Shown: positions 2,132 to 60,379 of the stretch, piece by piece
Layout of the letters: the number at the start of each line of letters is the position of its first letter
How positions within the stretch are numbered: position 1 is the first letter of the stretch
Sequence record: NC_029021.1
DNA length: 60,747 bases
Strand: one strand, 5' to 3'
Source: Enterobacteria phage JenK1
Made by a program: the position numbers and the translations under genes
The notes under the pieces: generated by a model
Database searches by the model: none
What the model was told of the DNA's origin: nothing
What the model saw: only the letters and a program-made list of their open reading frames with translations

Positions 2132-3658
2132 ATGGCCATTTCTTCGGTTCATCCTAAATATTTACAGTTTAGTGCATTATGGTTGAAGATGCGGGACTGT
2201 TTCCTTGGAGCTGACCACGTTAAGGCTCAAGGTACTTTGTATCTTCCACCGACACCCGCTATGCGTTATGACGGTATGAAACCAGGCGAAGATGGCTATA
2301 TCCGTTACAACGATTATAAAGAACGTGCGGTGTTCCCGGAGTATGTCGCTGATGCGGTAGTTAATCACAGTGGTATGCTTCATAGTAAGTCAGCTATTAT
2401 TCAGTTACCTGCTGCAATGGAACCCCTTCGTCAATCTGCTACCAGCAAGCGCGAAGGTTTAGATCAGCTATTACGCCGCATAAACGAGCTACAGCTACGC
2501 GATGGTCGTCTTGGCCTTCTGTTGGAGCTGCCAGCGGGAAGTACCCGTGACACGCTGCCGTACATCGCAGTATACGAGGCGTTAAGTATACGAAACTGGG
2601 ACGACGGTGAAGATGATCTTGGTTCACTTAACCTTAACCTAGTTGTTCTGGATGAGTCCAAAGAAGTAATGGACAAGACTTCATTTGATTGGACTTATAA
2701 AGTTCAATATCGAGTTCTTGTTCTTGGAAGCGCCAACGTAGATGAACCATCAGATAGCGGTTACGTGTATGGGCAGTATATGACAGAACTGCTTCCTGGT
2801 GAAGATGACGAACCAGAAGAGGTGAGCTCTGACGTTGTAGTCCCTCAGTATAAAGGTACTCCGCTTGAGCAGATACCTTTCGTATTTTGTAACGCTATGG
2901 ACTTAGTCCCAGAACCAGATAAACCACCACTACTCGCATTAGCAAACAGATGTATTTCCATTTATCAGGGTGAAGCTGATTATCGACAGGCTTTGTTTAT
3001 GCAGAGCCAGGATACGCTGGTTGTTCGTGGTGGTATTACGAACAGTGACGCAGTTGATGATAAAGCCCCTGTTCGTGTTGGTGCTGGTGCTCGTATTGAT
3101 GTATCTCCGGACGGTGATGCCAAATACATTGGTACTAATTCACAAGGTTTACCGGAGCAACGTAAAGCACTTGAAGCTGACCATAAAGACGCTCAGACCC
3201 GTTCCGGGCATTTAACCAGTGCAGAAAGTGCTTCTCAAGAATCTGGTGACGCACTGGAAACACGTCTTATCACTAAGACTGCTTCATTAGTTGGTATTGC
3301 TAAGACTGGTGCTGCTGCGTTAGAAAAAATCCTTCGTATTTGTGCTATATGGATGGGATTAAATCCAGACGAAGTTAAAGTTACACCTAACCTTGACTTC
3401 AGCAAAGCTAATATTGAAGGACAGGAATTGGTGCAGGTGCAGACTGCCAAGAATCTTGGTGCTCCGTTATGTGCTGAGTCTATGCACAACTGGTTGCAGG
3501 ATAAGGGAATGACCTCTTTGACGTTTGAAGAGGAGATGAAACGGCTTGAGGAGGAGCGCAAAGAATACCCGTTCCTTTTACCTCAAGTTAAAAACGATCA
3601 GAACCAAATCCAGCAAACAACTGGAGAACAGACGGGGAATGAAAATGCCGCTAAGTAA
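2132..3658 (+). CDS. portal protein (putative)
   Basis: 508-aa ORF immediately after terL and before scaffold and capsid genes; assigned by size and synteny. Confidence 0.6.
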   Translation: MAISSVHPKYLQFSALWLKMRDCFLGADHVKAQGTLYLPPTPAMRYDGMKPGEDGYIRYNDYKERAVFPEYVADAVVNHSGMLHSKSAIIQLPAAMEPLRQSATSKREGLDQLLRRINELQLRDGRLGLLLELPAGSTRDTLPYIAVYEALSIRNWDDGEDDLGSLNLNLVVLDESKEVMDKTSFDWTYKVQYRVLVLGSANVDEPSDSGYVYGQYMTELLPGEDDEPEEVSSDVVVPQYKGTPLEQIPFVFCNAMDLVPEPDKPPLLALANRCISIYQGEADYRQALFMQSQDTLVVRGGITNSDAVDDKAPVRVGAGARIDVSPDGDAKYIGTNSQGLPEQRKALEADHKDAQTRSGHLTSAESASQESGDALETRLITKTASLVGIAKTGAAALEKILRICAIWMGLNPDEVKVTPNLDFSKANIEGQELVQVQTAKNLGAPLCAESMHNWLQDKGMTSLTFEEEMKRLEEERKEYPFLLPQVKNDQNQIQQTTGEQTGNENAAK

Positions 3659-4706: not shown

Positions 4707-4806
4707 TACATCAACCGGAGCACGGGCTCCGATCAATCAAGGATTATTGGAGCCTCCCACGGCGGTAGAGTTCCAAAGTAAATCGATTAACTTTGCGGAG
4801 ACTACC

Positions 4807-22600: not shown

Positions 22601-23328
22601 GGCCTACAGATACACCACCGTCCGGTTATATTGTAATGCAGGGTCAACCCTTCGATAAAGCTGCATACCCGAAACTGGCTGCTGTATACCCAACGGGTGT
22701 ACTTCCAGATATGCGTGGTCAAACTATCAAAGGTAAACCAGCAAGCGGTCGTGACGTACTTTCTACAGAAGCTGATGGTGTGAAATCACATACTCACACT
22801 GCGTCTACTGCATCTGTCGATCTTGGAAGCAAGACAACTTCTAGCTTTGATTATGGTACTAAAGGGACAAGTAGTTTCGACTACGGTACTAAGACGAGTA
22901 ATAATACTGGTGCGCATACACATGGTATTAGCGGAACAGCAAATAGTGCAGGTGGGCACCAACACCAGAGTTCTGGACCATATGCGAATTCTAGTGATAG
23001 TGATCTCTTTCCTAACGGTTATACCCAGGTTTCAGCCACAAACAAACCAGTTGTACCACGGCAAGGTGGCGCAGGTATGACCCGTGTATCAGGGAAGACA
23101 TCATCAGATGGTGCTCATACCCACTCGCTGTCCGGTAGTGCCGCAAGCGCAGGTGCTCACGCACACACTGTTGGTATTGGCGCGCATACGCACTCAGTCG
23201 GTATTGGTGCTCATAGTCATACAGTCGCTTTAGGTTCGCACAGCCACGGTGTTACAGTTAACGCAACTGGTAACACAGAAAACACTGTTAAGAACGTTGC
23301 ATTCAACTATATTGTGAGGGCTGCTTAA
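19666..23328 (+). CDS. stf: side tail fibre protein (lambda Stf-like)
   Basis: 1220 aa; N-terminal domain, long Ala/Ser/Thr-rich repeat region, and C-terminal GAHxH repeats ending [16 protein letters not shown], which matches the lambda Stf C-terminus as recalled. Confidence 0.85.
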
Positions 23329-23905
23329 TGTCTTTTGAAATGAGTAATGAAGACCAGACTGTAACTGTGTACGACTACTCCAATGATACGGGCGAATATG
23401 TGGGAACCCGTGAAGCGTATGTGGTGGCCAACACAGGTCTTCCAGCATGTTGTACTGATATGGAGCCTCCAGTGGCTCCAGAAAATCATGTGGCGATTTT
23501 TAAAATAGACAGCGAAGTATGGATTTTGCGTGAGGACCATCGAGGGAAAGTCGTATACGATAAAAATACAGGACTTCCTTTAGTGATAACCACAATTGGA
23601 TCACTCCGGATAATGTGACCTATATCGCTCCCAACGGCGAGTATATGAAGTGGAACGGCGATATGTGGGTGGACGACCCGGATGCACAACGTGCTAAGTT
23701 GGTTGCGGATGCAACACAACATAAAACAGATCTTCTTAATTTAGCAGATTATAAAATCAGTATTCTGCAAGATGCTGTGACTTATAATCTAGCTACTGAC
23801 GAAGAAAGTTCGATGTTGGAATCGTGGAGAAAGTTTCGTGTACTTGTGAACCGCATAAACGAAAACGATCCACAGAATATTATCTGGCCTGAGTCTCCAG
23901 AATAA
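23328..23905 (+). pseudogene. tfa: tail fibre assembly protein gene (tfa) split by a frameshift at about 23604-23606
   Basis: ORFs 23328-23618 and 23615-23905 together align colinearly with lambda Tfa as recalled; continuity is restored by a -1 shift after CTC at 23604-23606. Confidence 0.6.
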
Positions 23906-23944
23906 TACCTGTCGTAGTGACCTCCATTAGCTTGATATAAATAA

Positions 23945-23987
23945 TTATCCGCTGTAAGTCCAACGACCAGCGGATAATTTTTATTTT
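23945..23987 (+). terminator. intrinsic terminator after tail fibre module
   Basis: 10-bp stem ttatccgctg / cagcggataa, 13-nt loop, then TTTTTATTTT. Confidence 0.7.
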
Positions 23988-24099
23988 CAATATTTACAAA
24001 TCATTTTTACGCTTTACCTTGTGATTCCCCACTTTTGCTATATGCTTGCTCTGTAACGTAAGAGTTACATCAATTTAACAATCTAAATGGGGAATCCAT

Positions 24100-24813
24100 A
24101 TGTCTGACATGACTCTTATTCCGGGCGGTTTGGGTGGCGGTTTCGGTGGTGAAGCTGGCGCAGCGGCCGTTGGCGGTGGTATCGGTGGCTTAATCGGTTC
24201 GTGGATCGGAAATGGTTGGGGTGGCAATGTCGGTTGGGGTGGTCGCGGCGGTTGGGGTGGTGGTGTCGGTGAAGTCCAGGCTTCCGTAGATACTAACGCA
24301 ATTCTGCAAGCCATCAATAACGGCAACCTGCAAAACATCCAGGGCCAGAACGGTACTAACCTGACTGTCGAACGTTCTGCGGCGTCCACCTTCAACGGTA
24401 TTACTCAACAGAACACTCAGAACATGCTGGCTTCCGTTCAGGGCTTTGCTGGTCTGAACACTGAAATTCGCACTGGTACAGCGTCTGTCGTAGCTGCTGT
24501 CAATGCTGCGGATGTAAACGCGTTGAACCGTTCCTTCCAGGCTCAGTTAGCTGCTCAGGAATGTTGCTGCGAGACCAACCTGAACATCGAACGTCAAGCG
24601 AACGAAACCCGTGGCCTGATCCGCGATCAGTTTGCTCAGTCTCAGGCTGTTCTGATCTGTGATCTGAAATCTCAGTTGCAGGAAGCTCGCTTTGCGAACT
24701 CCCAGCTTCATCAGACCGCTCAGATCGATTGTAAGATCAATCAGGTTGCACAGCTCGTTAACTTCAAACTGCCAACCCCTCCGACTCCGCCGACTGGTTG
24801 TTGTGGTTGCTAA
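24100..24813 (+). CDS. Gly-rich N-terminal / Cys-containing hypothetical protein
   Basis: 237 aa; N-terminal 60 aa dominated by GG/GW repeats, Q/N-rich middle, CCC and C-terminal GCCGC; strong host-like codon bias; bracketed by terminators. Confidence 0.6.
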   Translation: MSDMTLIPGGLGGGFGGEAGAAAVGGGIGGLIGSWIGNGWGGNVGWGGRGGWGGGVGEVQASVDTNAILQAINNGNLQNIQGQNGTNLTVERSAASTFNGITQQNTQNMLASVQGFAGLNTEIRTGTASVVAAVNAADVNALNRSFQAQLAAQECCCETNLNIERQANETRGLIRDQFAQSQAVLICDLKSQLQEARFANSQLHQTAQIDCKINQVAQLVNFKLPTPPTPPTGCCGC

Positions 24814-24834
24814 GATCCTAAAGTGTGGTCAACT

Positions 24835-24858
24835 AAACGCCTCTCACGGGGCGTTTTT
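24835..24858 (+). terminator. intrinsic terminator
   Basis: Stem aaacgcc / ggcgttt with 8-nt loop, followed by TTTTT. Confidence 0.5.
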
Positions 24859-24875
24859 AAAAAGAGGTCAGACAT

Positions 24876-25241
24876 ATGGGTCACATTAAATTAGCAACAC
24901 TTGCGTTACCACATATCCGTCTTCCAATGATTGCTTTACCGCATCTGGTTTACAAGACGGGTGAGCACCATACAGAGGAGCATCACGAACATGATAAACT
25001 TCATGCTAGAGATCATGAATCTATGGCAGTTATGGAATATGTGCATGAGCGGATGGAACAACCTCCGTCAACTTGGGCGGCGTACAGTAGCAAGTCCGGC
25101 GGTATGATGTCAATTGTCGAAATGGAGTATCGTGAACTGATGGAAAAGAAAGCTGAAGGTTCACATACTGGTGTAGAAAAAGAACTAACTGATCTTGCTG
25201 CCGCTTGTATTTGTGCGCTCAAGAAAATGAAAGCGAAGTAA
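24876..25241 (+). CDS. His/Glu-rich hypothetical protein (possible MazG-like NTP pyrophosphohydrolase)
   Basis: 121-aa ORF with E/H/D-rich helix-like segment; assignment weak. Confidence 0.35.
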   Translation: MGHIKLATLALPHIRLPMIALPHLVYKTGEHHTEEHHEHDKLHARDHESMAVMEYVHERMEQPPSTWAAYSSKSGGMMSIVEMEYRELMEKKAEGSHTGVEKELTDLAAACICALKKMKAK

Positions 25242-25257
25242 AAGATAGGAAGCCGAC

Positions 25258-25806
25258 ATGCAGAACATAAACAATGGTATGGGCGTTACTCAATTCAATG
25301 GTATGAAACCGAAAAGCTCCATCAGCGTTGGCGGCGTTGAATGGGCGTTACGTCGGGACGCTACCGATTCAACGACTGCGTTTCCGCACCAAAAGGTCAG
25401 CTGGCTAAATGCTGGTTGCGAACCTATGGCAGATGGTCGGGTTCATTATTGTTGGATAATGGGTGTGATACCACCAACGCCAGGTACTATCGAACGTCCA
25501 GTGAATGTGATGTATGTTGGCTTCCACCAGTTTAAGATCACAATAGCTCCGAACTCCATTAGCCAATCCGATCTCGATCGTATGCACGTATATGTGAGCG
25601 ATAACTCTGACTTTGCAGGTGAATTCGTAAGTAAGTTCTTAGGGCTGGAACCCGCGCAGCCTGTAGAATCCCGTGAGAGCATTAGCCCATGGCCACCAAC
25701 GATAGATCAGAGCGTGTTACACGCGAAACCGCAGACTCCAGAACCTCAGGCGCAACCACAACCGCAAACTGTGGTCAAGCCAGAGCAGAAAGGTGAAGTT
25801 AAATGA
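25258..25806 (+). CDS. hypothetical protein
   Basis: 182-aa ORF with Pro/Gln-rich C-terminus. Confidence 0.5.
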   Translation: MQNINNGMGVTQFNGMKPKSSISVGGVEWALRRDATDSTTAFPHQKVSWLNAGCEPMADGRVHYCWIMGVIPPTPGTIERPVNVMYVGFHQFKITIAPNSISQSDLDRMHVYVSDNSDFAGEFVSKFLGLEPAQPVESRESISPWPPTIDQSVLHAKPQTPEPQAQPQPQTVVKPEQKGEVK

Positions 25807-26072
25807 CGAAGAACGAAGGTATTGATAAAGTAGTTCAGCAACTGGCAATACGTGCCCATGTTGTAGTAGACGAAGGTCATTCCGAATTAGACATCCTAAA
25901 GTCCGCTTTCAATGACTTCAAATCCATGGGTTCTTTAACTGGTATTATGTCAGTGATGAGCTCAGGTAAATTAACTCAGCAACAAGTTGATGTTGCACAA
26001 CGTATTGCTGTAAAGGTCTTGGCTGTGCTAGGCATCCAAGAATCAAATAAAAAACAAAAAAAAGAAGAATAA
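25803..26072 (+). CDS. hypothetical protein
   Basis: 89-aa ORF; ATGA overlap with upstream gene. Confidence 0.45.
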   Translation: MTKNEGIDKVVQQLAIRAHVVVDEGHSELDILKSAFNDFKSMGSLTGIMSVMSSGKLTQQQVDVAQRIAVKVLAVLGIQESNKKQKKEE

Positions 26073-26108: not shown

Positions 26109-26144
26109 GTGGGCCAGTATAAACGTATTGGCCCACTTTTTATT
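26109..26144. terminator. terminator at convergent junction of plus late genes and minus replication operon
   Basis: 8-bp stem gtgggcca / tggcccac, 12-nt loop, then TTTTTATT on plus strand. Confidence 0.55.
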
Positions 26145-34358: not shown

Positions 34359-35183
34359 TTACTCTGCAGTTTTCTGAGACGGAATTTCTACGTTAGCGGC
34401 CGCTTGTGCAATATTAGCAGGTACTGGAACGGATACGCGACCAGTAATGCCCATGTATTTTTTCCAGCGAGCGTATTCCGCTTTAACGTTCGCTTCGTTC
34501 AGGCCTTTGTCCAGTGCAACAGGCAGAACGTAGCTGATCGGTGCAGTCTGACCCAGCTCCATGGTGACAGCGTCAAAGATATCCCATGCAGCACGGCACA
34601 GAGTACCGACACCAGGCTTACGAATACCGTTCTGTTCAGGCTCTTTCTTAGCTTCGCGTTCTGCTGCTTTACGAGCACGCTCTTCGTCCTGCAGACGTTT
34701 CTTCTCAGCGCGTTGTGCGTCACGTTGAGCTTTTTCAGCGGCCTTAGTGGCTTCGCGGGCAGCGGATACACGACCTTTAACATCTTTCAGAGTGGATTCA
34801 ATGGAGGAAACCAGATCTTCAGATGCTGCAACGGCAGTTTTCAGCTGATCGTTGTCTTTAACTTTACGTGCTGCCGCTTTAACAGCTTTCAGACCTTCTT
34901 TAGCGGTCTTCAGTTGAGCGGTAACTACGCCTTCAACTGCTTTAACTTCGTCCAGCAATGAACCTTCGTTCAGGGTCGCGAACTGTTCTTTAACAGCGGA
35001 CATAGCACCTTCGATCACATTGTAACCGGCAGTGGCTTCGTTCATTGCGGCGTCAACTTTAGCCTGCAATTCACGTGCTGCTTTTTCTTCAGCTTCACGT
35101 TTTTTCTTTGCTTCAGCTTCTTTTGCTGCTTTCTTTGCTGCTTCTTCTGCTTCCAGTTGTTCTGGAGTTTTCTCTTTAGCCAT
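34359..35183 (-). CDS. highly charged coiled-coil protein, probably abundant
   Basis: 274 aa, K/E/A-rich N-terminus, globular C-terminus; very strong host-like codon bias; strong promoter immediately upstream. Confidence 0.6.
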   Translation of the reverse strand: MAKEKTPEQLEAEEAAKKAAKEAEAKKKREAEEKAARELQAKVDAAMNEATAGYNVIEGAMSAVKEQFATLNEGSLLDEVKAVEGVVTAQLKTAKEGLKAVKAAARKVKDNDQLKTAVAASEDLVSSIESTLKDVKGRVSAAREATKAAEKAQRDAQRAEKKRLQDEERARKAAEREAKKEPEQNGIRKPGVGTLCRAAWDIFDAVTMELGQTAPISYVLPVALDKGLNEANVKAEYARWKKYMGITGRVSVPVPANIAQAAANVEIPSQKTAE

Positions 35184-57761: not shown

Positions 57762-58115
57762 ATGAGCTTGCAACGTTTTGACAATGCAGAACTCGCGTGT
57801 GAATTTGCAAAGCGTAAGTTCGCTAAAACAGGTACGCCGCGATGCGTACATGCGGCTATTGGGCAAAATGGGGCAAAGTATTGGTACGTTGGTACAGTAG
57901 CTCAGATCAAGCGAAGATTCGCGACTACGCCCGAAATGCGCCGGCTTGGGTCCCCTACACTTGTGCGAAACAGGCAGTTGGATAAAGAGGAAATTTATCA
58001 ATTTCTTAGGAATTACACTGGTAAAGAGAATAGATTTCAGGTTGCAGCGAAAGAGTTCAATATCGGTCTTTCCACTGCTTATAAAATTTATCACATATAT
58101 GGGCGTTTAATATGA
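57762..58115 (+). CDS. putative DNA-binding protein (C-terminal HTH-like)
   Basis: 117 aa; C-terminal segment QVAAKEFNIGLSTAYKIY resembles a helix-turn-helix. Confidence 0.4.
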   Translation: MSLQRFDNAELACEFAKRKFAKTGTPRCVHAAIGQNGAKYWYVGTVAQIKRRFATTPEMRRLGSPTLVRNRQLDKEEIYQFLRNYTGKENRFQVAAKEFNIGLSTAYKIYHIYGRLI

Positions 58116-58606
58116 CCGCAATTGCTTATCGTAATGGTATATTGGCTGTAGATCGTCAGGTTACATGGGGTAATATTGCAACAACTACGGATAAAGTTCA
58201 CACTGTCAACATTCCAGGAATTGGACTTTGTCTTGTTGCGATGTCTGGTAAACTACGTCCTGTAACTGATATTATAGACCATCTGAAAACTACGGTTCGT
58301 GGACGCAAAGAACCTTTCTCAGATTTAAATCCGGATTCCCGTTATGGTATTGCGGTGACGCAGGAGCTTGTCGTATATCCTATCTACGGGGATGGTAAAT
58401 TAGGTCTACCGGACACTAATGAATTTATTGCGGAAGGTAGCGCGTTTGAGTTCTTGATGGGTGCAATGGCGGGAGGTTGCACCGCCGAAGAGGCTGTACG
58501 GCTGGCGTGCGTATATTGCGATAGTTGTGGTCAAGGGGTTAAGTTCTATGATGTAGCCTATACTCTTAAAGTGGCGCAGTGTAAAATCGAGGAGAAACCA
58601 TTTTGA
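58112..58606 (+). CDS. HslV-like N-terminal nucleophile peptidase
   Basis: MTAIAYRNGILAVDRQVTWGN aligns with HslV N-terminus [24 protein letters not shown] as recalled (Thr nucleophile after Met); later IAEGSAF...AGGCTAEEA resembles HslV IAIGSGG...TELSAREIA. Confidence 0.55.
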   Translation: MTAIAYRNGILAVDRQVTWGNIATTTDKVHTVNIPGIGLCLVAMSGKLRPVTDIIDHLKTTVRGRKEPFSDLNPDSRYGIAVTQELVVYPIYGDGKLGLPDTNEFIAEGSAFEFLMGAMAGGCTAEEAVRLACVYCDSCGQGVKFYDVAYTLKVAQCKIEEKPF

Positions 58607-58794: not shown

Positions 58795-59018
58795 GTGATC
58801 CTACAAATGCACAATTAGCCGCTGCAAGAGTGTATATGCGCGGAGCTGCCGCTGAGATTGATGCTTTGCCACAATTTGAAAAGCATGTACAGCAACTCGA
58901 AGATAAATTCAAGACTCTTAAAGATCTAGGGGATACAAAAGATGCTATAGCCTTTCTTCTTGCTATCCAATACTTGTCTATGGGGGTTGGTGACAAAGTA
59001 TGTTCCTTAGAAGAATAA
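58791..59018 (+). CDS. hypothetical small protein
   Basis: 75-aa ORF. Confidence 0.4.
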   Translation: MSDPTNAQLAAARVYMRGAAAEIDALPQFEKHVQQLEDKFKTLKDLGDTKDAIAFLLAIQYLSMGVGDKVCSLEE

Positions 59019-59500
59019 TTGGTATTGTTGCACCTTGGATACCACTTGTCATAATTGCTATTCTAGCCAACTGGGCTTATGACAATGCCATAGAATCAGC
59101 TAGAAAGGAGGGTTTCGATGCCGGTGTGTCGTACCAAAAAGAAACTCAGAAAGCGGTTGATTTCGAGGAGGAGAAACGAAGAGCGTATGAGAAAGACACT
59201 ATCGAACGTCAGTACCGATCTCGTATTGAATCTTTGGTTGCCGATCTTAATAATTATCGCGCTACTAATGACAGGTTGCACAACGAAATCGCAACCGTCC
59301 GTAAGTACCTCGGTGACGCTACCGGCCCTCAGCCCGACAGCAAGACAACCGCCCAGATCGCCCGTGTGCTCACCGAGCTGTATTCAGAAAGCGTCACAGA
59401 ATACAGACAAGTGGCAGAAGAGGCTGAAAAGTATCGTCTTGCCGGCGAGCAGTGCGAACTACAGTATGATGCAATGCGAAATCCGCGTAAAGAACGGTGA
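59000..59500 (+). CDS. inner-membrane spanin (Rz-like)
   Basis: N-terminal transmembrane helix, then charged coiled-coil-like periplasmic domain; contains embedded +1-frame lipoprotein ORF. Confidence 0.55.
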   Translation: MFLRRIIGIVAPWIPLVIIAILANWAYDNAIESARKEGFDAGVSYQKETQKAVDFEEEKRRAYEKDTIERQYRSRIESLVADLNNYRATNDRLHNEIATVRKYLGDATGPQPDSKTTAQIARVLTELYSESVTEYRQVAEEAEKYRLAGEQCELQYDAMRNPRKER

Positions 59501-59531
59501 TAAACTGCAAAGTCCTTGCCGGATTGCGTAA
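59187..59531 (+). CDS. outer-membrane lipoprotein spanin (Rz1-like), embedded in +1 frame
   Basis: Signal peptide ending in lipobox LLMTGC, Pro-rich mature region; ATG 59187 preceded by GAGGAGGA. Confidence 0.55.
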   Translation: MRKTLSNVSTDLVLNLWLPILIIIALLMTGCTTKSQPSVSTSVTLPALSPTARQPPRSPVCSPSCIQKASQNTDKWQKRLKSIVLPASSANYSMMQCEIRVKNGDKLQSPCRIA

Positions 59532-59622
59532 CTAACCGTTCAATCTTAATCACACATAATTGATTGTGTGCGTGTGATAATTCAACTATGCTCTATTCGG
59601 TTTAACTGAATGGAGCTTTTTT

Positions 59623-60057
59623 ATGACTATGCAACCACGAGGCATCCGGAATAACAATCCTGGAAATATTCGTTGGGGTGATAACTGGAAAGGTCTTGTT
59701 CCTGAAAACAAACGGACTGACCGTTCTTTCTGTCAATTTATCGATGTAAAATACGGTATTCGCGCCATTGCGCGTATTCTACTAAACTACCGCAACCGCG
59801 AAGGGATGAAACGTGTCGGAAATAAAGGGATTGACACTGTACGGGAGATTATTTCGCGCTGGGCTCCGCCGAATGAAAATAACACTGAAGCTTATATTCA
59901 ATCTGTGTCTAAGGCTTGTGGTGTTGGTGCAGAACAGCCGATTTCAGTGACCGATGATAAAATCATGCTCGCAATCGTGAAAGCGATTATCAAACATGAA
60001 AACGGTGTGCAACCTTATTCTGATGAAGTTTTGCTCGCGGGTATCCACATGGCATAG
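59623..60057 (+). CDS. hypothetical protein, possibly lysis-associated (candidate endolysin by context only)
   Basis: 144-aa soluble protein between spanin pair and two small membrane proteins; no catalytic motif recognised. Confidence 0.3.
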   Translation: MTMQPRGIRNNNPGNIRWGDNWKGLVPENKRTDRSFCQFIDVKYGIRAIARILLNYRNREGMKRVGNKGIDTVREIISRWAPPNENNTEAYIQSVSKACGVGAEQPISVTDDKIMLAIVKAIIKHENGVQPYSDEVLLAGIHMA

Positions 60058-60070
60058 TAAGAGGTTATAA

Positions 60071-60379
60071 GTGTCGCCGAACTGGGATTGGAATATAGTT
60101 TTTATTCTGACTGCCATTGCAATGGTAGGGGGTTCCCTTGGCTACGCTGCAAGAACCCATGATGCTAAAGAAAGGTTCAGACTCAGTGTCTTCATTCAAG
60201 AGGGTGCTTTTTCTGCATTCTTTGGTTTCTTGATAGGTGTAATTAACGTGGAACATGGTGTCTCACTGGGGCTCAGTGGGGCGTTCATAGGTGTGTTATC
60301 TTGGTCCGGTTCAAGAACCATGCTAAAGTTTCTACGGAGAAAGACAGAAGTATGTGACCGAGAAAAGGAAAGAGGTTGA
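60071..60379 (+). CDS. small membrane protein (holin-like)
   Basis: 102 aa with two to three hydrophobic helices and charged C-terminus; GTG start with GAGG RBS. Confidence 0.4.
   Translation: MSPNWDWNIVFILTAIAMVGGSLGYAARTHDAKERFRLSVFIQEGAFSAFFGFLIGVINVEHGVSLGLSGAFIGVLSWSGSRTMLKFLRRKTEVCDREKERG

What the first reader, a model, noticed from the sequence alone, without database searches (positions are those of the whole stretch)
24100..24813. Codon-optimised Gly-rich, Cys-containing protein as an autonomous transcription unit after the tail fibre genes
The N-terminal 60 aa are GG/GW repeats resembling colicin or microcin glycine-rich regions, and the first ten residues end in a double glycine; the C-terminus carries CCC and GCCGC. 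The gene is bracketed by terminators and shows the strongest host-like codon bias outside the capsid gene, implying high expression. It could be a virion fibre or decoration protein or a bacteriocin-like factor, and a C39-like peptidase is encoded elsewhere in the genome.
Basis: partly seen in the sequence, partly recalled or inferred. Interest (0 to 1): 0.55.

Follow-up and report, generated by a model that had tools for sequence, protein, structure and literature searches.

The report
Abundant membrane-anchored phage rod protein
The gene encodes a very highly expressed but dispensable phage protein, predicted to sit in the host membrane and carry a long helical rod with an invariant triple-cysteine motif; it leads a four-gene accessory operon shared by many unrelated phages, its function is unknown, and it does not look like a bacteriocin.

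Summary
It is Gly/Trp-rich at the N-terminus, has CCC and a terminal GCCGC, has terminators on both sides, and has the second-highest E. coli CAI of 80 ORFs, above the capsid gene. It is not an autonomous unit. It is the first gene of a four-gene operon A-B-C-D (24100-26072) with its own promoter, a predicted 5' hairpin and an internal attenuator. The operon is conserved at about 30% identity in siphoviruses (Queuovirinae, Drexlerviridae, 9NA-like, eiAU) and in PY100-like myoviruses. In distant relatives, the segment aligned with the glycine zipper (G25xxxG29xxxG33xxxG37) is a canonical hydrophobic transmembrane helix. A is therefore best read as a bitopic membrane protein with a roughly 155-residue helical rod and a nearly invariant CCC. 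The gene is knocked out, truncated or deleted in several laboratory isolates, so it is dispensable on K-12. No double-glycine-leader, colicin/microcin or C39 peptidase evidence was found, and no characterised family matches. My best guess, at low confidence, is a stoichiometric, host-envelope-directed accessory factor of the exclusion or membrane-scaffold type. A virion fibre role is less likely and a bacteriocin role is unlikely.

The parts
23943..23985 (+). Terminator-like hairpin plus U-run ending the tail-fibre/tfa transcription unit
   Evidence: RNA fold -22.7 kcal/mol, z = -4.9, 0 of 200 shuffles as stable. Annotated as a terminator in HdK1.
24019..24046 (+). Putative sigma-70 promoter: -35 TTGTGA (24019-24024), 16-nt spacer, -10 TATGCT (24041-24046)
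   Evidence: Read from the sequence. The -10 (TATGCT/TATACT) is conserved in the upstream alignment of four phage lineages (A3). The consensus scanner did not call it, so this is inference.
24053..24068 (+). Palindrome GTAAC-N6-GTTAC at the predicted transcript start: either a 5'-terminal mRNA hairpin or an operator
   Evidence: Invariant arms in Nonagvirus, Seuratvirus, Hanrivervirus and Sashavirus, while the flanks are about 60% identical. The only exact copy in the window. Folds as a 5' hairpin in all four.
24100..24813 (+). Gene A: the 237-aa protein of the finding (JenK1 AVU35_gp25, PHROG 9288)
   Evidence: (E 2e-130, full length).
24172..24210 (+). Glycine zipper G25xxxG29xxxG33xxxG37 (aa 25-37): predicted membrane-embedded helix
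   Evidence: G29 and G33 are invariant and G37/G39 nearly so. GxxxGxxxG occurs in 165 of 170 relatives. It aligns with a canonical hydrophobic TM helix in distant relatives. AF2 gives a short helix at 24-32.
24214..24270 (+). 18-bp tandem repeat (3.2 copies) encoding the GWGGxx juxtamembrane linker; length-polymorphic among relatives
   Evidence: TRF score 72. Indels among close homologues.
24292..24759 (+). Predicted continuous alpha-helical rod (aa 65-220); its first half has 11/3 (hendecad) hydrophobic periodicity
   Evidence: AF2 with a 59-sequence MSA gives helix 65-220, with pLDDT 70-89 over about 80-210. Best period 3.67, p about 0.007 against shuffles, no 3.5 signal.
24562..24570 (+). 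Invariant CCC (C155-C157)
   Evidence: Invariant in A1 and A7. Present in 167 of 170 and 58 of 59 relatives.
24607..24660 (+). Conserved T170-R171 ... C187-D188 segment; R171 is the exact midpoint between C155 and C187
   Evidence: R171 is invariant and T170, C187, D188 and K190 are at least 90% conserved. The 32-residue C...C spacing is the same in a distant homologue read by eye and is nearly gap-free in alignment A2.
24769..24810 (+). Pro-rich tail ending in GCCGC (aa 224-237)
   Evidence: The terminal Cys cluster is present in about half of the family and is longer (PCPxPAY...GCGCGC) in the distant clade.
24835..24858 (+). Internal attenuator-like hairpin plus U5 between A and B
   Evidence: A terminator is annotated at the same place in Sasha.
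24876..25241 (+). Gene B (121 aa): His-rich N-terminus, possibly a MazG-like all-alpha NTP-pyrophosphatase fold
   Evidence: PHROG 9157. The profile hits PDB 2p06 (AF_0060) at E 0.006. Annotated 'putative pyrophosphatase' in BASEL phages.
25258..25806 (+). Gene C (182 aa), unknown
   Evidence: PHROG 8329. Co-conserved with A.
25803..26072 (+). Gene D (89 aa), unknown
   Evidence: PHROG 7239. Co-conserved with A.
26109..26136 (+). Strong terminator closing the operon, facing the convergent DNA polymerase gene
   Evidence: 12-bp stem plus T-run.

Best explanation
Gene A encodes a bitopic (single-anchor) membrane protein made in very large amounts. Its parts, in order, are a short acidic N-terminal tail (MSDMTLIPGG...), a glycine-zipper membrane helix, a Gly/Trp-rich interfacial linker, a roughly 155-residue alpha-helical rod carrying an invariant CCC and a conserved R171/C187 cluster, and a Pro/Cys tail.

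A is the lead gene of a horizontally mobile accessory operon, A-B-C-D. The operon is driven by its own host-type promoter. Its transcript is predicted to begin with a stabilising 5' hairpin. A partial terminator after A would keep B-D at lower levels.

Inferred mechanism: A oligomerises through the zipper helix and the rod and acts stoichiometrically at the host inner membrane during infection. The most likely role is an exclusion-type or membrane-scaffolding factor directed at the host envelope. The flanking charges slightly favour the rod facing the cytoplasm, where it could meet B-D.

Shown: the anatomy, conservation, operon structure, codon optimisation, dispensability, and homology of the zipper to a TM helix. 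Inferred: membrane localisation, topology, oligomerisation and the envelope-directed role.
For: - Membrane anchor. In about 30 of 49 non-redundant IMG/VR relatives, the segment aligned with the zipper is a canonical hydrophobic helix (e.g. WWIIILFLIFAFGGWG), and intermediates exist. G29 and G33 are invariant. The Trp-rich linker has favourable interfacial partitioning, about -6.8 kcal/mol for residues 25-57. The family profile's only PDB matches are the influenza HA2 fusion peptide plus helix A, at a borderline E of 0.008-0.1.
- Rod. AF2 predicts one helix over residues 65-220.
- Abundance. CAI ranks 2nd of 80 ORFs in the window and 1st in 5 of 6 other loci. A promoter, a 5' hairpin and an attenuator are present.
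- Operon. B, C and D are co-conserved with A at about 30% identity of A in L006, L007 and L009, and also in PY100-like myoviruses and eiAU.
- Accessory and dispensable. There is an amber codon in SeppeHuegi/Skure, a 3' truncation with loss of B-D in VogelGryff, a 5' deletion fusion in KurtStettler, a broken copy in a T5-like phage, and only a C/D remnant in 9NA.
- Host-directed rather than virion-specific. The operon is shared by phages with unrelated morphogenesis and replication modules, and at varied positions. It was not found in 185,579 bacterial and archaeal genomes.
- Not lysis. The phage has its own Rz-like spanin, endolysin and holin.
Against: - The zipper itself is too weakly hydrophobic to be called a TM helix by standard scales: Kyte-Doolittle 19-residue maximum 1.25, and a positive insertion energy by my hand estimate.
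- There is no signal peptide and no experimental localisation.
- Only 11% of residues are charged and the composition is N/Q/T/S/A-rich. From general knowledge, this resembles extracellular fibres more than cytoplasmic coiled coils.
- Very high expression is unusual for a membrane protein and for known exclusion proteins.
- In five lineages, including one distant clade, the gene lies directly after the tail-fibre genes. That could mean a fibre-related role.
- The functions of B, C and D are unknown and give no support to any specific mechanism.
Confidence: 0.35

Rival explanations
1. A is a virion-associated accessory protein. It would be either a trimeric fibre or whisker, or a membrane-penetration (ejection) factor associated with the tail or tail fibres. 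Its hydrophobic, fusion-peptide-like N-terminus would engage the host membrane at infection, and its cysteines would cross-link after release.
For: - The gene lies immediately downstream of lateral tail-fibre/chaperone genes in Queuovirinae, Drexlerviridae, T5-like phages, eiAU and a distant clade with an amidase endolysin.
- High expression, like the capsid gene.
- A long helix with hendecad periodicity and very low charge.
- Decoration and head-fibre proteins are typically dispensable (general knowledge).
- Lateral tail fibres are themselves dispensable on K-12 (BASEL paper, PMC8594841), so loss on K-12 would be tolerated.
Against: - A terminator separates the gene from the fibre genes, and it has its own promoter.
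- In 9NA-like phages it lies between TerL and the portal gene. In PY100-like myoviruses, L006 and L007 it lies among early/replication genes.
- It is shared by siphoviruses and myoviruses with unrelated capsids and tails.
- It is always co-transferred with B-D, which look cytoplasmic.
- No virion proteome covering a phage with an intact copy could be read.
Confidence: 0.2
2. A is a lysis-related membrane protein: a one-TMD holin or antiholin, or a spanin-like periplasm-spanning rod. The glycine-zipper helix would form or regulate membrane lesions.
For: - Architecture of one TMD plus a large coiled-coil domain with cysteines, as in T4 holin T and in i-spanins (general knowledge).
- Glycine zippers drive pinholin oligomerisation (general knowledge).
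- In the distant clade the gene lies between the tail fibre and the endolysin, and no holin was recognised nearby.
- The rod would be about 23 nm long if fully helical, roughly the width of the periplasm.
Against: - The window has a complete lysis cassette elsewhere: Rz-like spanin at 59000-59500, endolysin at 59623-60057, holin at 60071-60379.
- There is no profile similarity to that spanin (hhalign probability 0.2%).
- The acidic N-flank argues against the N-in/C-out topology of spanins and of T4 T.
- Holins are not normally the most codon-optimised genes.
- The gene is dispensable for plaque formation.
Confidence: 0.1
3. A is a cytoplasmic scaffold that is not integrated in the membrane. 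A Gly/aromatic/Arg low-complexity head plus a coiled-coil rod would form filaments or condensates that organise phage processes together with B-D. The CCC/C187 cluster would be a metal site.
For: - No signal peptide.
- The zipper is weakly hydrophobic in the enterobacterial clade.
- The linker is rich in GW/GF/GY and RG.
- B has a His-rich N-terminus and conserved Cys.
- High abundance.
- The operon often borders replication genes.
Against: - Distant relatives carry an unmistakable TM helix at this position.
- The charged-residue content (11%) is atypically low for soluble cytoplasmic coiled coils.
- No metal-binding family matches.
Confidence: 0.12
4. A is a bacteriocin-, colicin- or microcin-like factor. 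It would be released at lysis or processed at a double-glycine site by a C39 peptidase, and would act on neighbouring cells.
For: - The Gly-rich N-terminus resembles colicin translocation domains and microcins in composition (sequence inspection; resemblance recalled from memory).
- A GG near residue 10 is common in the family.
- Lysis would release the protein without an exporter (inference).
Against: - No hit to any NCBIfam model (a library that I recall, unchecked here, includes double-glycine-leader bacteriocin models) or to any Pfam colicin/microcin family.
- No C39 peptidase, ABC exporter or immunity-like membrane gene was found.
- There is no cytotoxic domain after the rod.
- The N-terminal Gly-rich segment is homologous to a membrane anchor.
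- The family is confined to virulent phage genomes.
Confidence: 0.04
5. A is a lateral-tail-fibre chaperone or assembly factor, as annotated in a few records.
For: - Position after the LTF/tfa genes.
- 'Lateral tail fiber chaperone' labels in PJ16 and KurtStettler.
- KurtStettler encodes an in-frame fusion of an S74-type chaperone domain to A.
Against: - The KurtStettler fusion removes A's first ~18 residues and its promoter, and looks like a deletion.
- The operon is not next to fibre genes in several lineages.
- The window already encodes a lambda gpK-type Tfa.
- The membrane anchor and extreme expression are unlike known fibre chaperones.
Confidence: 0.06

Closest known systems
PHROG 9288 (uncharacterised phage protein family; JenK1 gp25, pSf-1 gp92, Sasha gp07, SeppeHuegi bas24_0023/24)
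   Same: Full-length match, E 2e-130. About 124 phage records carry a homologue.
   Different: The family has no assigned function. All source names are 'hypothetical', apart from a few labels ('putative sugar-binding protein', 'lateral tail fiber chaperone') for which I found no supporting evidence.
Influenza haemagglutinin HA2 (class I fusion protein): N-terminal fusion peptide followed by a long coiled-coil helix
   Same: This is the only kind of PDB match for the family profile. Profile positions 22-100 align to HA2 residues 4-86 (GxxxGxxxGxW.G...GW.G, then a helix) at E 0.008-0.1, for both influenza A and B. The overall layout is similar: a Gly/aromatic membrane-active segment, a long helix and membrane-proximal cysteines.
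   Different: The E-values are borderline and the region is compositionally biased. A has no ectodomain receptor-binding subunit, no cleavage-generated N-terminus and no C-terminal TM. This is an analogy, not homology.
Glycine-zipper membrane helices (GxxxGxxxG; Kim et al. 2005 PNAS; Pfam Gly-zipper_Omp PF13488; pinholin S21 TMD2)
   Same: A has a four-glycine zipper with invariant G29 and G33. Two family members give weak Gly-zipper_Omp hits (E 0.029).
   Different: All hits are below Pfam thresholds. Known Gly-zipper_Omp proteins are small outer-membrane lipoproteins, and A has no lipobox.
Phage phi29 p16.7 (abundant, dispensable, membrane-anchored coiled-coil early protein that organises replication at the membrane) - from my own knowledge, not tested
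   Same: Same class of architecture (N-terminal anchor, then coiled coil) and same behaviour: abundant, non-essential and encoded next to replication genes.
   Different: No sequence relationship. p16.7 has a basic DNA-binding C-terminal domain, whereas A is slightly acidic, has few Lys/Arg and carries a Cys cluster.
i-spanin Rz / T4 holin T (bitopic phage membrane proteins with large coiled-coil or globular periplasmic domains and functional cysteines)
   Same: One membrane anchor, a long helical domain, and conserved cysteines.
   Different: No similarity to the window's own Rz-like protein. The flanking charges suggest the opposite topology. The lysis cassette is complete without A.
Colicin translocation domains, class II microcins and double-glycine-leader bacteriocins
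   Same: Gly-rich N-terminal composition and a GG near residue 10.
   Different: No model match, no processing or export genes, no toxin domain. The Gly-rich segment is a membrane-anchor homologue.

Membership tests
PHROG 9288 | Full-length match to the family HMM | tested here: met
   E 2.2e-130, residues 1-236 against profile positions 1-234 of 234.
Double-glycine-leader bacteriocin / class II microcin | Recognisable leader peptide (LSxxELxxIxGG-type) matching curated leader or bacteriocin models | tested here: not met
   NCBIfam gave 0 families at E <= 1. That this library contains double-glycine-leader models is my recollection, not checked here. Pfam gave none. The 10-residue MSDMTLIPGG is shorter than known leaders (general knowledge).
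Double-glycine-leader bacteriocin / class II microcin | Cognate C39 peptidase-ABC exporter and an immunity gene in the same genome | tested here: not met
   No such annotation in the near-identical HdK1 genome. Ten candidate window ORFs gave no Peptidase_C39 hit. This was not an exhaustive scan of every ORF.
Colicin | Receptor-binding and cytotoxic domains recognisable by Pfam, plus immunity and lysis genes | tested here: not met
   No colicin domains. Only 14 residues follow the rod.
Bitopic membrane protein with glycine-zipper TM helix | GxxxGxxxG motif conserved in a hydrophobic segment | tested here: met
   G25/G29/G33/G37. Present in 165 of 170 relatives; G29 and G33 invariant.
Bitopic membrane protein with glycine-zipper TM helix | Segment hydrophobic enough to span the bilayer | tested here: inconclusive
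   Kyte-Doolittle 19-residue maximum is 1.25 in the window protein. The aligned segment in distant relatives scores 1.9-2.6 over 15 residues and is a canonical TM helix.
Bitopic membrane protein with glycine-zipper TM helix | Experimental membrane localisation and topology | not testable with these tools
   Needs fractionation and PhoA/GFP fusions.
Class I viral fusion protein (HA2-like) | Significant sequence or fold similarity to HA2 or other class I fusion subunits | tested here: inconclusive
   Profile against PDB: E 0.008-0.1, restricted to the fusion peptide and helix A. One member hits Pfam Hemagglutinin at E 0.012. Foldseek found nothing.
Class I viral fusion protein (HA2-like) | Trimer-of-hairpins / fusion activity | not testable with these tools
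   The monomer AF2 model gives a single straight helix. No multimer prediction or assay was available.
Spanin (Rz-type i-spanin) | Homology to Rz-like families or to the phage's own spanin; position in the lysis cassette | tested here: not met
   The PHROG Rz-like hit is at 59000-59500, not here. hhalign probability 0.2%.
Caudoviral tail-fibre assembly protein / fibre chaperone | Match to Caudo_TAP or chaperone families | tested here: not met
   Caudo_TAP matches the upstream ORF 23615-23905, not gene A.
Anti-phage defence system proteins (PADLOC) | Match to any PADLOC model | tested here: not met
   0 families for A, B, C and D.

The most novel reading that the evidence does not exclude
The family would be a previously unrecognised class of phage-encoded membrane-remodelling or membrane-tethering machine. 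Its parts are a fusion-peptide-like glycine-zipper anchor, a long hendecad-based rod, and an invariant CCC/Arg/Cys centre that forms an inter-chain metal or redox site (C155...R171...C187 is exactly symmetric). It is conserved from enterobacterial siphoviruses and myoviruses to phages that carry an amidase-type endolysin, which suggests Gram-positive hosts. In the enterobacterial clade it works with a MazG-like partner and two unknown proteins. Such a machine would be made at capsid-like levels to reshape or seal the host membrane during infection.
Probability: 0.12. Interest if true: 0.8.

Novelty: new variant of a known kind. Interest (0 to 1): 0.5.

Why it matters
This appears to be one of the most strongly expressed genes of several model coliphage groups (Queuovirinae, Drexlerviridae, 9NA-like; many BASEL phages), yet it has no known function and is annotated 'hypothetical' or mislabelled. 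This work shows three things. It is the lead gene of a deeply conserved, mobile four-gene operon. Its Gly-rich head is a membrane anchor. It is repeatedly lost on laboratory K-12. Together these turn a vague curiosity into a testable problem: what abundant membrane-associated function do virulent phages need in nature but not in the laboratory? Natural knock-outs (SeppeHuegi amber, VogelGryff deletion) next to intact sister phages give ready-made material. If the function is exclusion or envelope protection, it bears on phage-cocktail design. If it is membrane remodelling with a CCC metal or redox centre, it would be new biochemistry.

Tried and rejected
- Sequence families. Pfam gave only sub-threshold DUF6160/DUF7715 hits and, across 29 members, no consistent family. 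NCBIfam gave nothing and PADLOC nothing. PDB phmmer and hmmsearch gave only borderline HA2 matches.\n- Structure. Two AF2 monomer runs gave a straight helix. Foldseek against BFVD found only one significant match (E 3.6e-06, 57% identity), an unnamed 126-aa viral protein that is presumably a homologue. Foldseek against PDB found nothing. A single long helix is uninformative for fold search, and no multimer prediction was possible.\n- Internal repeats. The QGF(A/S)G(L/V)N motif recurs at 11/22/33-residue spacings in relatives, but an hhalign self-comparison of the family profile was not significant (E 0.52).\n- Antiparallel or hairpin pairing around R171. An MI/APC covariation analysis (258 sequences, Neff 68) showed no enrichment at i+j of about 342. 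This is uninformative rather than negative.\n- Heptad coiled coil. There is no 3.5-residue signal; the C-terminal half has no clear periodicity.\n- Spanin relationship: rejected.\n- Palindrome as a genome-wide promoter or operator element: rejected, since it is the only exact copy in the window.\n- Prophage or bacterial homologues: none found in the genome-contig scan, which is sensitive to close relatives only. An alignment-based scan failed for lack of conserved stretches.\n- Virion proteomics. Sfin-1 lacks the cassette. The CAjan and PY100 papers are not held. The 9g and Vid5 papers give nothing on this gene. Literature searches found no study of the family.\n- B/C/D homologues in the distant TM-type clade: not detectable. 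Operon conservation is therefore claimed only for the glycine-zipper clade.
Full report
WHAT IS THERE

The window is a Nonagvirus (Queuovirinae) genome, essentially Enterobacteria phage JenK1. The finding's region is 99.7% identical to phage HdK1, and the protein is identical to JenK1 AVU35_gp25 / YP_009219305.1, 'hypothetical protein'.

The ORF at 24100-24813 (+) encodes 237 aa, with a GGGGA Shine-Dalgarno sequence 6 nt upstream. 27 of the first 60 residues are Gly. All four Trp lie at residues 35-52, in a stretch encoded by an 18-bp tandem repeat (24214-24270, 3.2 copies). Cysteines are at 155-157 (CCC), 187, 211, 234, 235 and 237.

The 106-aa Pro-rich ORF on the opposite strand (24075-24395) appears to be a mirror ORF of the Gly codons rather than a gene; I did not test this.

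EXPRESSION SIGNALS

- A strong hairpin plus U-run (23943-23985; z = -4.9) ends the tail-fibre/tfa unit.
- A weaker 9-bp hairpin plus U5 (24835-24858) follows the gene.
- A strong terminator (26109-26136) comes only after three more co-oriented genes.

I aligned the upstream regions from four phage lineages: this window, Seuratvirus OddieOddie, Hanrivervirus KarlJaspers and Sashavirus Sasha. The alignment shows a conserved -10 box (TATGCT/TATACT). About 6-7 nt downstream lies an invariant palindrome, GTAAC-N6-GTTAC (24053-24068), within flanks that are otherwise about 60% identical. With TTGTGA 16 nt upstream, this reads as a host-type promoter whose transcript would begin with a hairpin, and the hairpin is predicted in all four lineages. 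The palindrome has only one exact copy in the window. The arms show no covariation, so an operator is an equally valid reading.

The window mean is 0.296 (sd 0.086; 80 ORFs). This ranks second, above the putative capsid gene (0.515) and below ORF 34359-35183(-) (0.627). The homologue has the highest CAI in 5 of 6 other loci examined, whereas the three downstream genes are ordinary. High expression of gene A specifically is therefore a conserved design. It fits a strong promoter, a 5' hairpin and an attenuator placed after the first gene.

IT IS THE FIRST GENE OF A CONSERVED OPERON

The next three genes are B (121 aa), C (182 aa) and D (89 aa). They are co-linear with A in these phages:

- KarlJaspers (Drexlerviridae), 48-77% identity.
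- Sasha (9NA-like).
- Seuratviruses.
- Edwardsiella phage eiAU.
- The PY100-like Yersinia myovirus vB_YenM_25, gp30-33. These phages are described as myoviruses in PMC11269248.
- Metagenomic phages in which A is only about 30% identical: L006, L007, L009 and others.

B has a His-rich N-terminus. Its profile weakly matches the MazG-like protein AF_0060 (PDB 2p06, E 0.006), and BASEL annotators call it 'putative pyrophosphatase'. C and D match nothing.

The operon's position varies:
- After the lateral tail-fibre/chaperone genes in Queuovirinae, Drexlerviridae and eiAU, and as a broken A-only remnant in a T5-like phage.
- Between TerL and the portal gene in Sasha.
- Among early or replication genes in vB_YenM_25, L006 and L007.

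No relative was found in 185,579 bacterial and archaeal species genomes, using a scan sensitive to close relatives only. This is a mobile accessory cassette of virulent phages.

THE PROTEIN FAMILY

The window protein is a full-length member of PHROG 9288, function unknown (E 2e-130). Searches found 177 proteins with the single sequence, 883 with a family profile, and 57 clusters at 50% identity. No Pfam, NCBIfam or PADLOC family matches.

Conserved features across about 170 full-length members:
- An N-terminal M-x-D-M-x-L-L-P motif.
- A glycine zipper, GxxxGxxxG, in 165 of 170. G29 and G33 are invariant.
- A QGF(A/S)G(L/V)N motif. When repeated, it recurs at 11, 22 or 33-residue spacings.
- CCC in 167 of 170.
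- Invariant R171, with T170.
- [LI]-C-D in 154 of 170.

The terminal Cys cluster is present in only 88 of 170. Charged residues make up only about 11%.

AlphaFold2 with a 59-sequence alignment predicts a short helix at 24-32 and one continuous helix over 65-220 (pLDDT 70-89 over about 80-210). Residues 1-23 and 39-64 have low confidence (the earlier run is).

Family-averaged hydrophobicity of residues 65-130 has period 3.67, that is 11/3 or a hendecad (p about 0.007 against shuffles), with no heptad signal. The C-terminal half shows no clean periodicity.

R171 lies exactly midway between C155 and C187. The same 32-residue C...C spacing is seen in a distant homologue read by eye and is nearly gap-free in alignment A2. 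This would fit an antiparallel dimer, or a hairpin, that brings CCC and C187 together. A covariation test had too little power to decide.

THE GLY-RICH HEAD IS A MEMBRANE ANCHOR

An IMG/VR scan returned 59 further loci, on contigs of 5-174 kb. In about 30 of 49 non-redundant relatives, the segment that aligns column-for-column with the window's AAAVGGGIGGLIGSWI-GNGWGG is a canonical hydrophobic helix. Examples are WAWVLIFLIFAFGGWGRNG and WIWIIVLFALFGWGGNG. Intermediate forms also exist: IIGLAALGLIFGDGFGFGG and WIIGLAVVGGIFGNGGFGFGG. CCC (58 of 59) and the QGF motif (59 of 59) are retained, and Pro/Cys-rich C-terminal tails (PCPxPAY...GCGCGC) are common.

The zipper in the enterobacterial clade is therefore a derived, weakly hydrophobic version of a transmembrane anchor: Kyte-Doolittle 19-residue maximum 1.25, against 1.9-2.6 over 15 residues in the distant clade.

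In line with this, the only PDB matches of the family profile are influenza A and B HA2, covering the fusion peptide and the start of the coiled coil, at a borderline E of 0.008-0.1. I treat that as an analogy, not homology.

Flanking charges are acidic on the N side (+0.7/-2.1) and near-neutral on the C side (+1.0/-0.9) (similar figures). This mildly favours N-out/C-in. B-D lack signal peptides (by inspection; no predictor was run). Topology remains unproven.

DISPENSABILITY

Several sequenced isolates carry disrupted copies:

| Phage | State of the gene |
|---|---|
| SeppeHuegi (Skure encodes the same 106-aa C-terminal ORF) | Single CAG-to-TAG amber codon in an otherwise intact gene |
| VogelGryff | 3' end of A and all of B-D lost |
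| KurtStettler | Deletion fusing an S74-type fibre-chaperone domain to residue ~19 of A |
| vaffelhjerte (T5-like) | Broken copy |
| 9NA (classical laboratory phage) | Only part of C, plus D, between TerL and the portal gene |

The gene is therefore not needed for plaque formation on laboratory hosts.

WHAT IT IS NOT

- Bacteriocin. There is no leader, colicin or microcin model hit. No C39 peptidase or exporter was found in the HdK1 annotation or in 10 scanned ORFs. There is no toxin domain, and the Gly-rich part is an anchor.
- Spanin or holin of this phage. The lysis cassette is at 59000-60379, and hhalign to the Rz-like protein gives 0.2% probability.
- Tail-fibre assembly protein. Caudo_TAP matches the upstream ORFs instead.

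MOST LIKELY MECHANISM

Shown:
- The anatomy of the protein.
- The operon structure.
- Codon optimisation as a conserved trait.
- Homology of the Gly-rich head to a transmembrane anchor.
- Dispensability on laboratory hosts.
- Spread across unrelated phage types.

Inferred: A inserts into, or binds tightly to, the host inner membrane. It oligomerises through the zipper helix and the rod, and it acts stoichiometrically, which would explain capsid-like expression. B-D would be made in smaller amounts as partners.

The cassette moves between phages that share hosts but not virion or replication machinery. It often sits where siphoviruses keep receptor-related accessory genes. It is needed in nature but not on K-12. 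For these reasons I favour a host-envelope-directed accessory role, either superinfection exclusion or a membrane scaffold/protection function. Confidence is about 0.35.

Rivals, in order:
- A virion-associated fibre or membrane-penetration factor (0.2). This is kept alive by the tail-fibre adjacency, which recurs even in a distant clade where A lies between a tail fibre and an amidase endolysin.
- A cytoplasmic scaffold or condensate (0.12).
- A lysis-related protein (0.1).
- A fibre chaperone (0.06).
- A bacteriocin (0.04).

NOVELTY AND INTEREST

The gene is known only as a hypothetical protein, and no paper in the library treats it. The kind of element, a promoter- and terminator-bounded accessory cassette led by a membrane protein, is familiar. 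This family's architecture is not: a zipper anchor, a hendecad rod, an invariant CCC, extreme expression and a conserved four-gene context. I rate it a new variant of a known kind, with interest 0.5. It would rise substantially if the CCC centre or a membrane-remodelling activity were demonstrated.

Noticed in passing
window 23328-23618 and 23615-23905 (+): The tail-fibre assembly gene appears as two overlapping 96-aa ORFs. They match the N- and C-terminal halves of tail-fibre assembly families (PHROG 105; Caudo_TAP for the second). HdK1 annotates a single 525-bp gene here. This could be a frameshift, a sequencing error, or a genuinely split or programmed gene.
   Followed up: partly
window 34359-35183 (-): This ORF has the highest CAI in the window (0.627). 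It encodes a 274-aa Ala/Lys/Glu-rich, probably helical protein of PHROG 11298 (unknown function), in the early/replication region. It is another very highly expressed protein of unknown role.
   Followed up: partly
window 24053-24068; L003 4688-4703; L004 ~2990-3005; L005 ~4787-4802: The palindrome GTAAC-N6-GTTAC travels with the cassette across four phage lineages with invariant arms and variable loops. There is no covariation, so it could be a protein-binding operator rather than, or as well as, a 5' mRNA hairpin. It loosely resembles TyrR (TGTAAA-N6-TTTACA) and GacA/UvrY (TGTAAG-N6-CTTACA) boxes recalled from memory.
   Followed up: partly
L012 (SeppeHuegi) 2249-3031; L013 (VogelGryff) 2249-2914; protein P0282 (KurtStettler): Three BASEL Seuratviruses isolated on K-12 carry different lesions of the gene: an amber codon, a 3' truncation with loss of B-D, and a 5' deletion giving an in-frame fusion to an S74-type fibre-chaperone domain. 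Database annotations split or mislabel the gene as a result.
   Followed up: yes
L056 3986-7002 and about 25 other IMG/VR loci (L037-L075): The distant transmembrane-type clade has its own conserved neighbourhood: a Q/Y/P-rich 161-aa protein, a 72-aa protein, A, a Cys-rich 150-aa protein, an Arg/Gly/Tyr-rich 170-aa protein and a 101-aa protein. In L056 this sits between a tail-fibre gene and an amidase endolysin, which suggests Gram-positive hosts. Some contigs are 110-174 kb.
   Followed up: partly
L002 (Salmonella phage vaffelhjerte) 3674-4264: This T5-like Epseptimavirus carries only a decayed copy of gene A (internal stop; CCC changed to YCC) right after its lateral tail-fibre gene. The record annotates only the first fragment.
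   Followed up: yes
L014 (Salmonella phage 9NA) 3870-4676: 9NA gp13-gp14 are remnants of cassette genes C (truncated) and D, between TerL and the portal gene. A and B are missing, whereas the related Sasha has the full cassette plus a homing endonuclease at the same site.
   Followed up: partly
window 24876-25241 (gene B): The variable His-rich N-terminal stretch (EHHTEEHHEHDKLHARDHE here; HHHHHYHHGHH in Sasha) and the invariant AAAC motif hint at metal binding. Together with A's CCC, this may point to metal or redox chemistry in the module.
   Followed up: no
window 58112-58606 (+): This ORF matches PHROG 1040 'peptidase HslV family' (E 3e-34) but no Pfam family. It lies just upstream of the lysis cassette.
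   Followed up: partly
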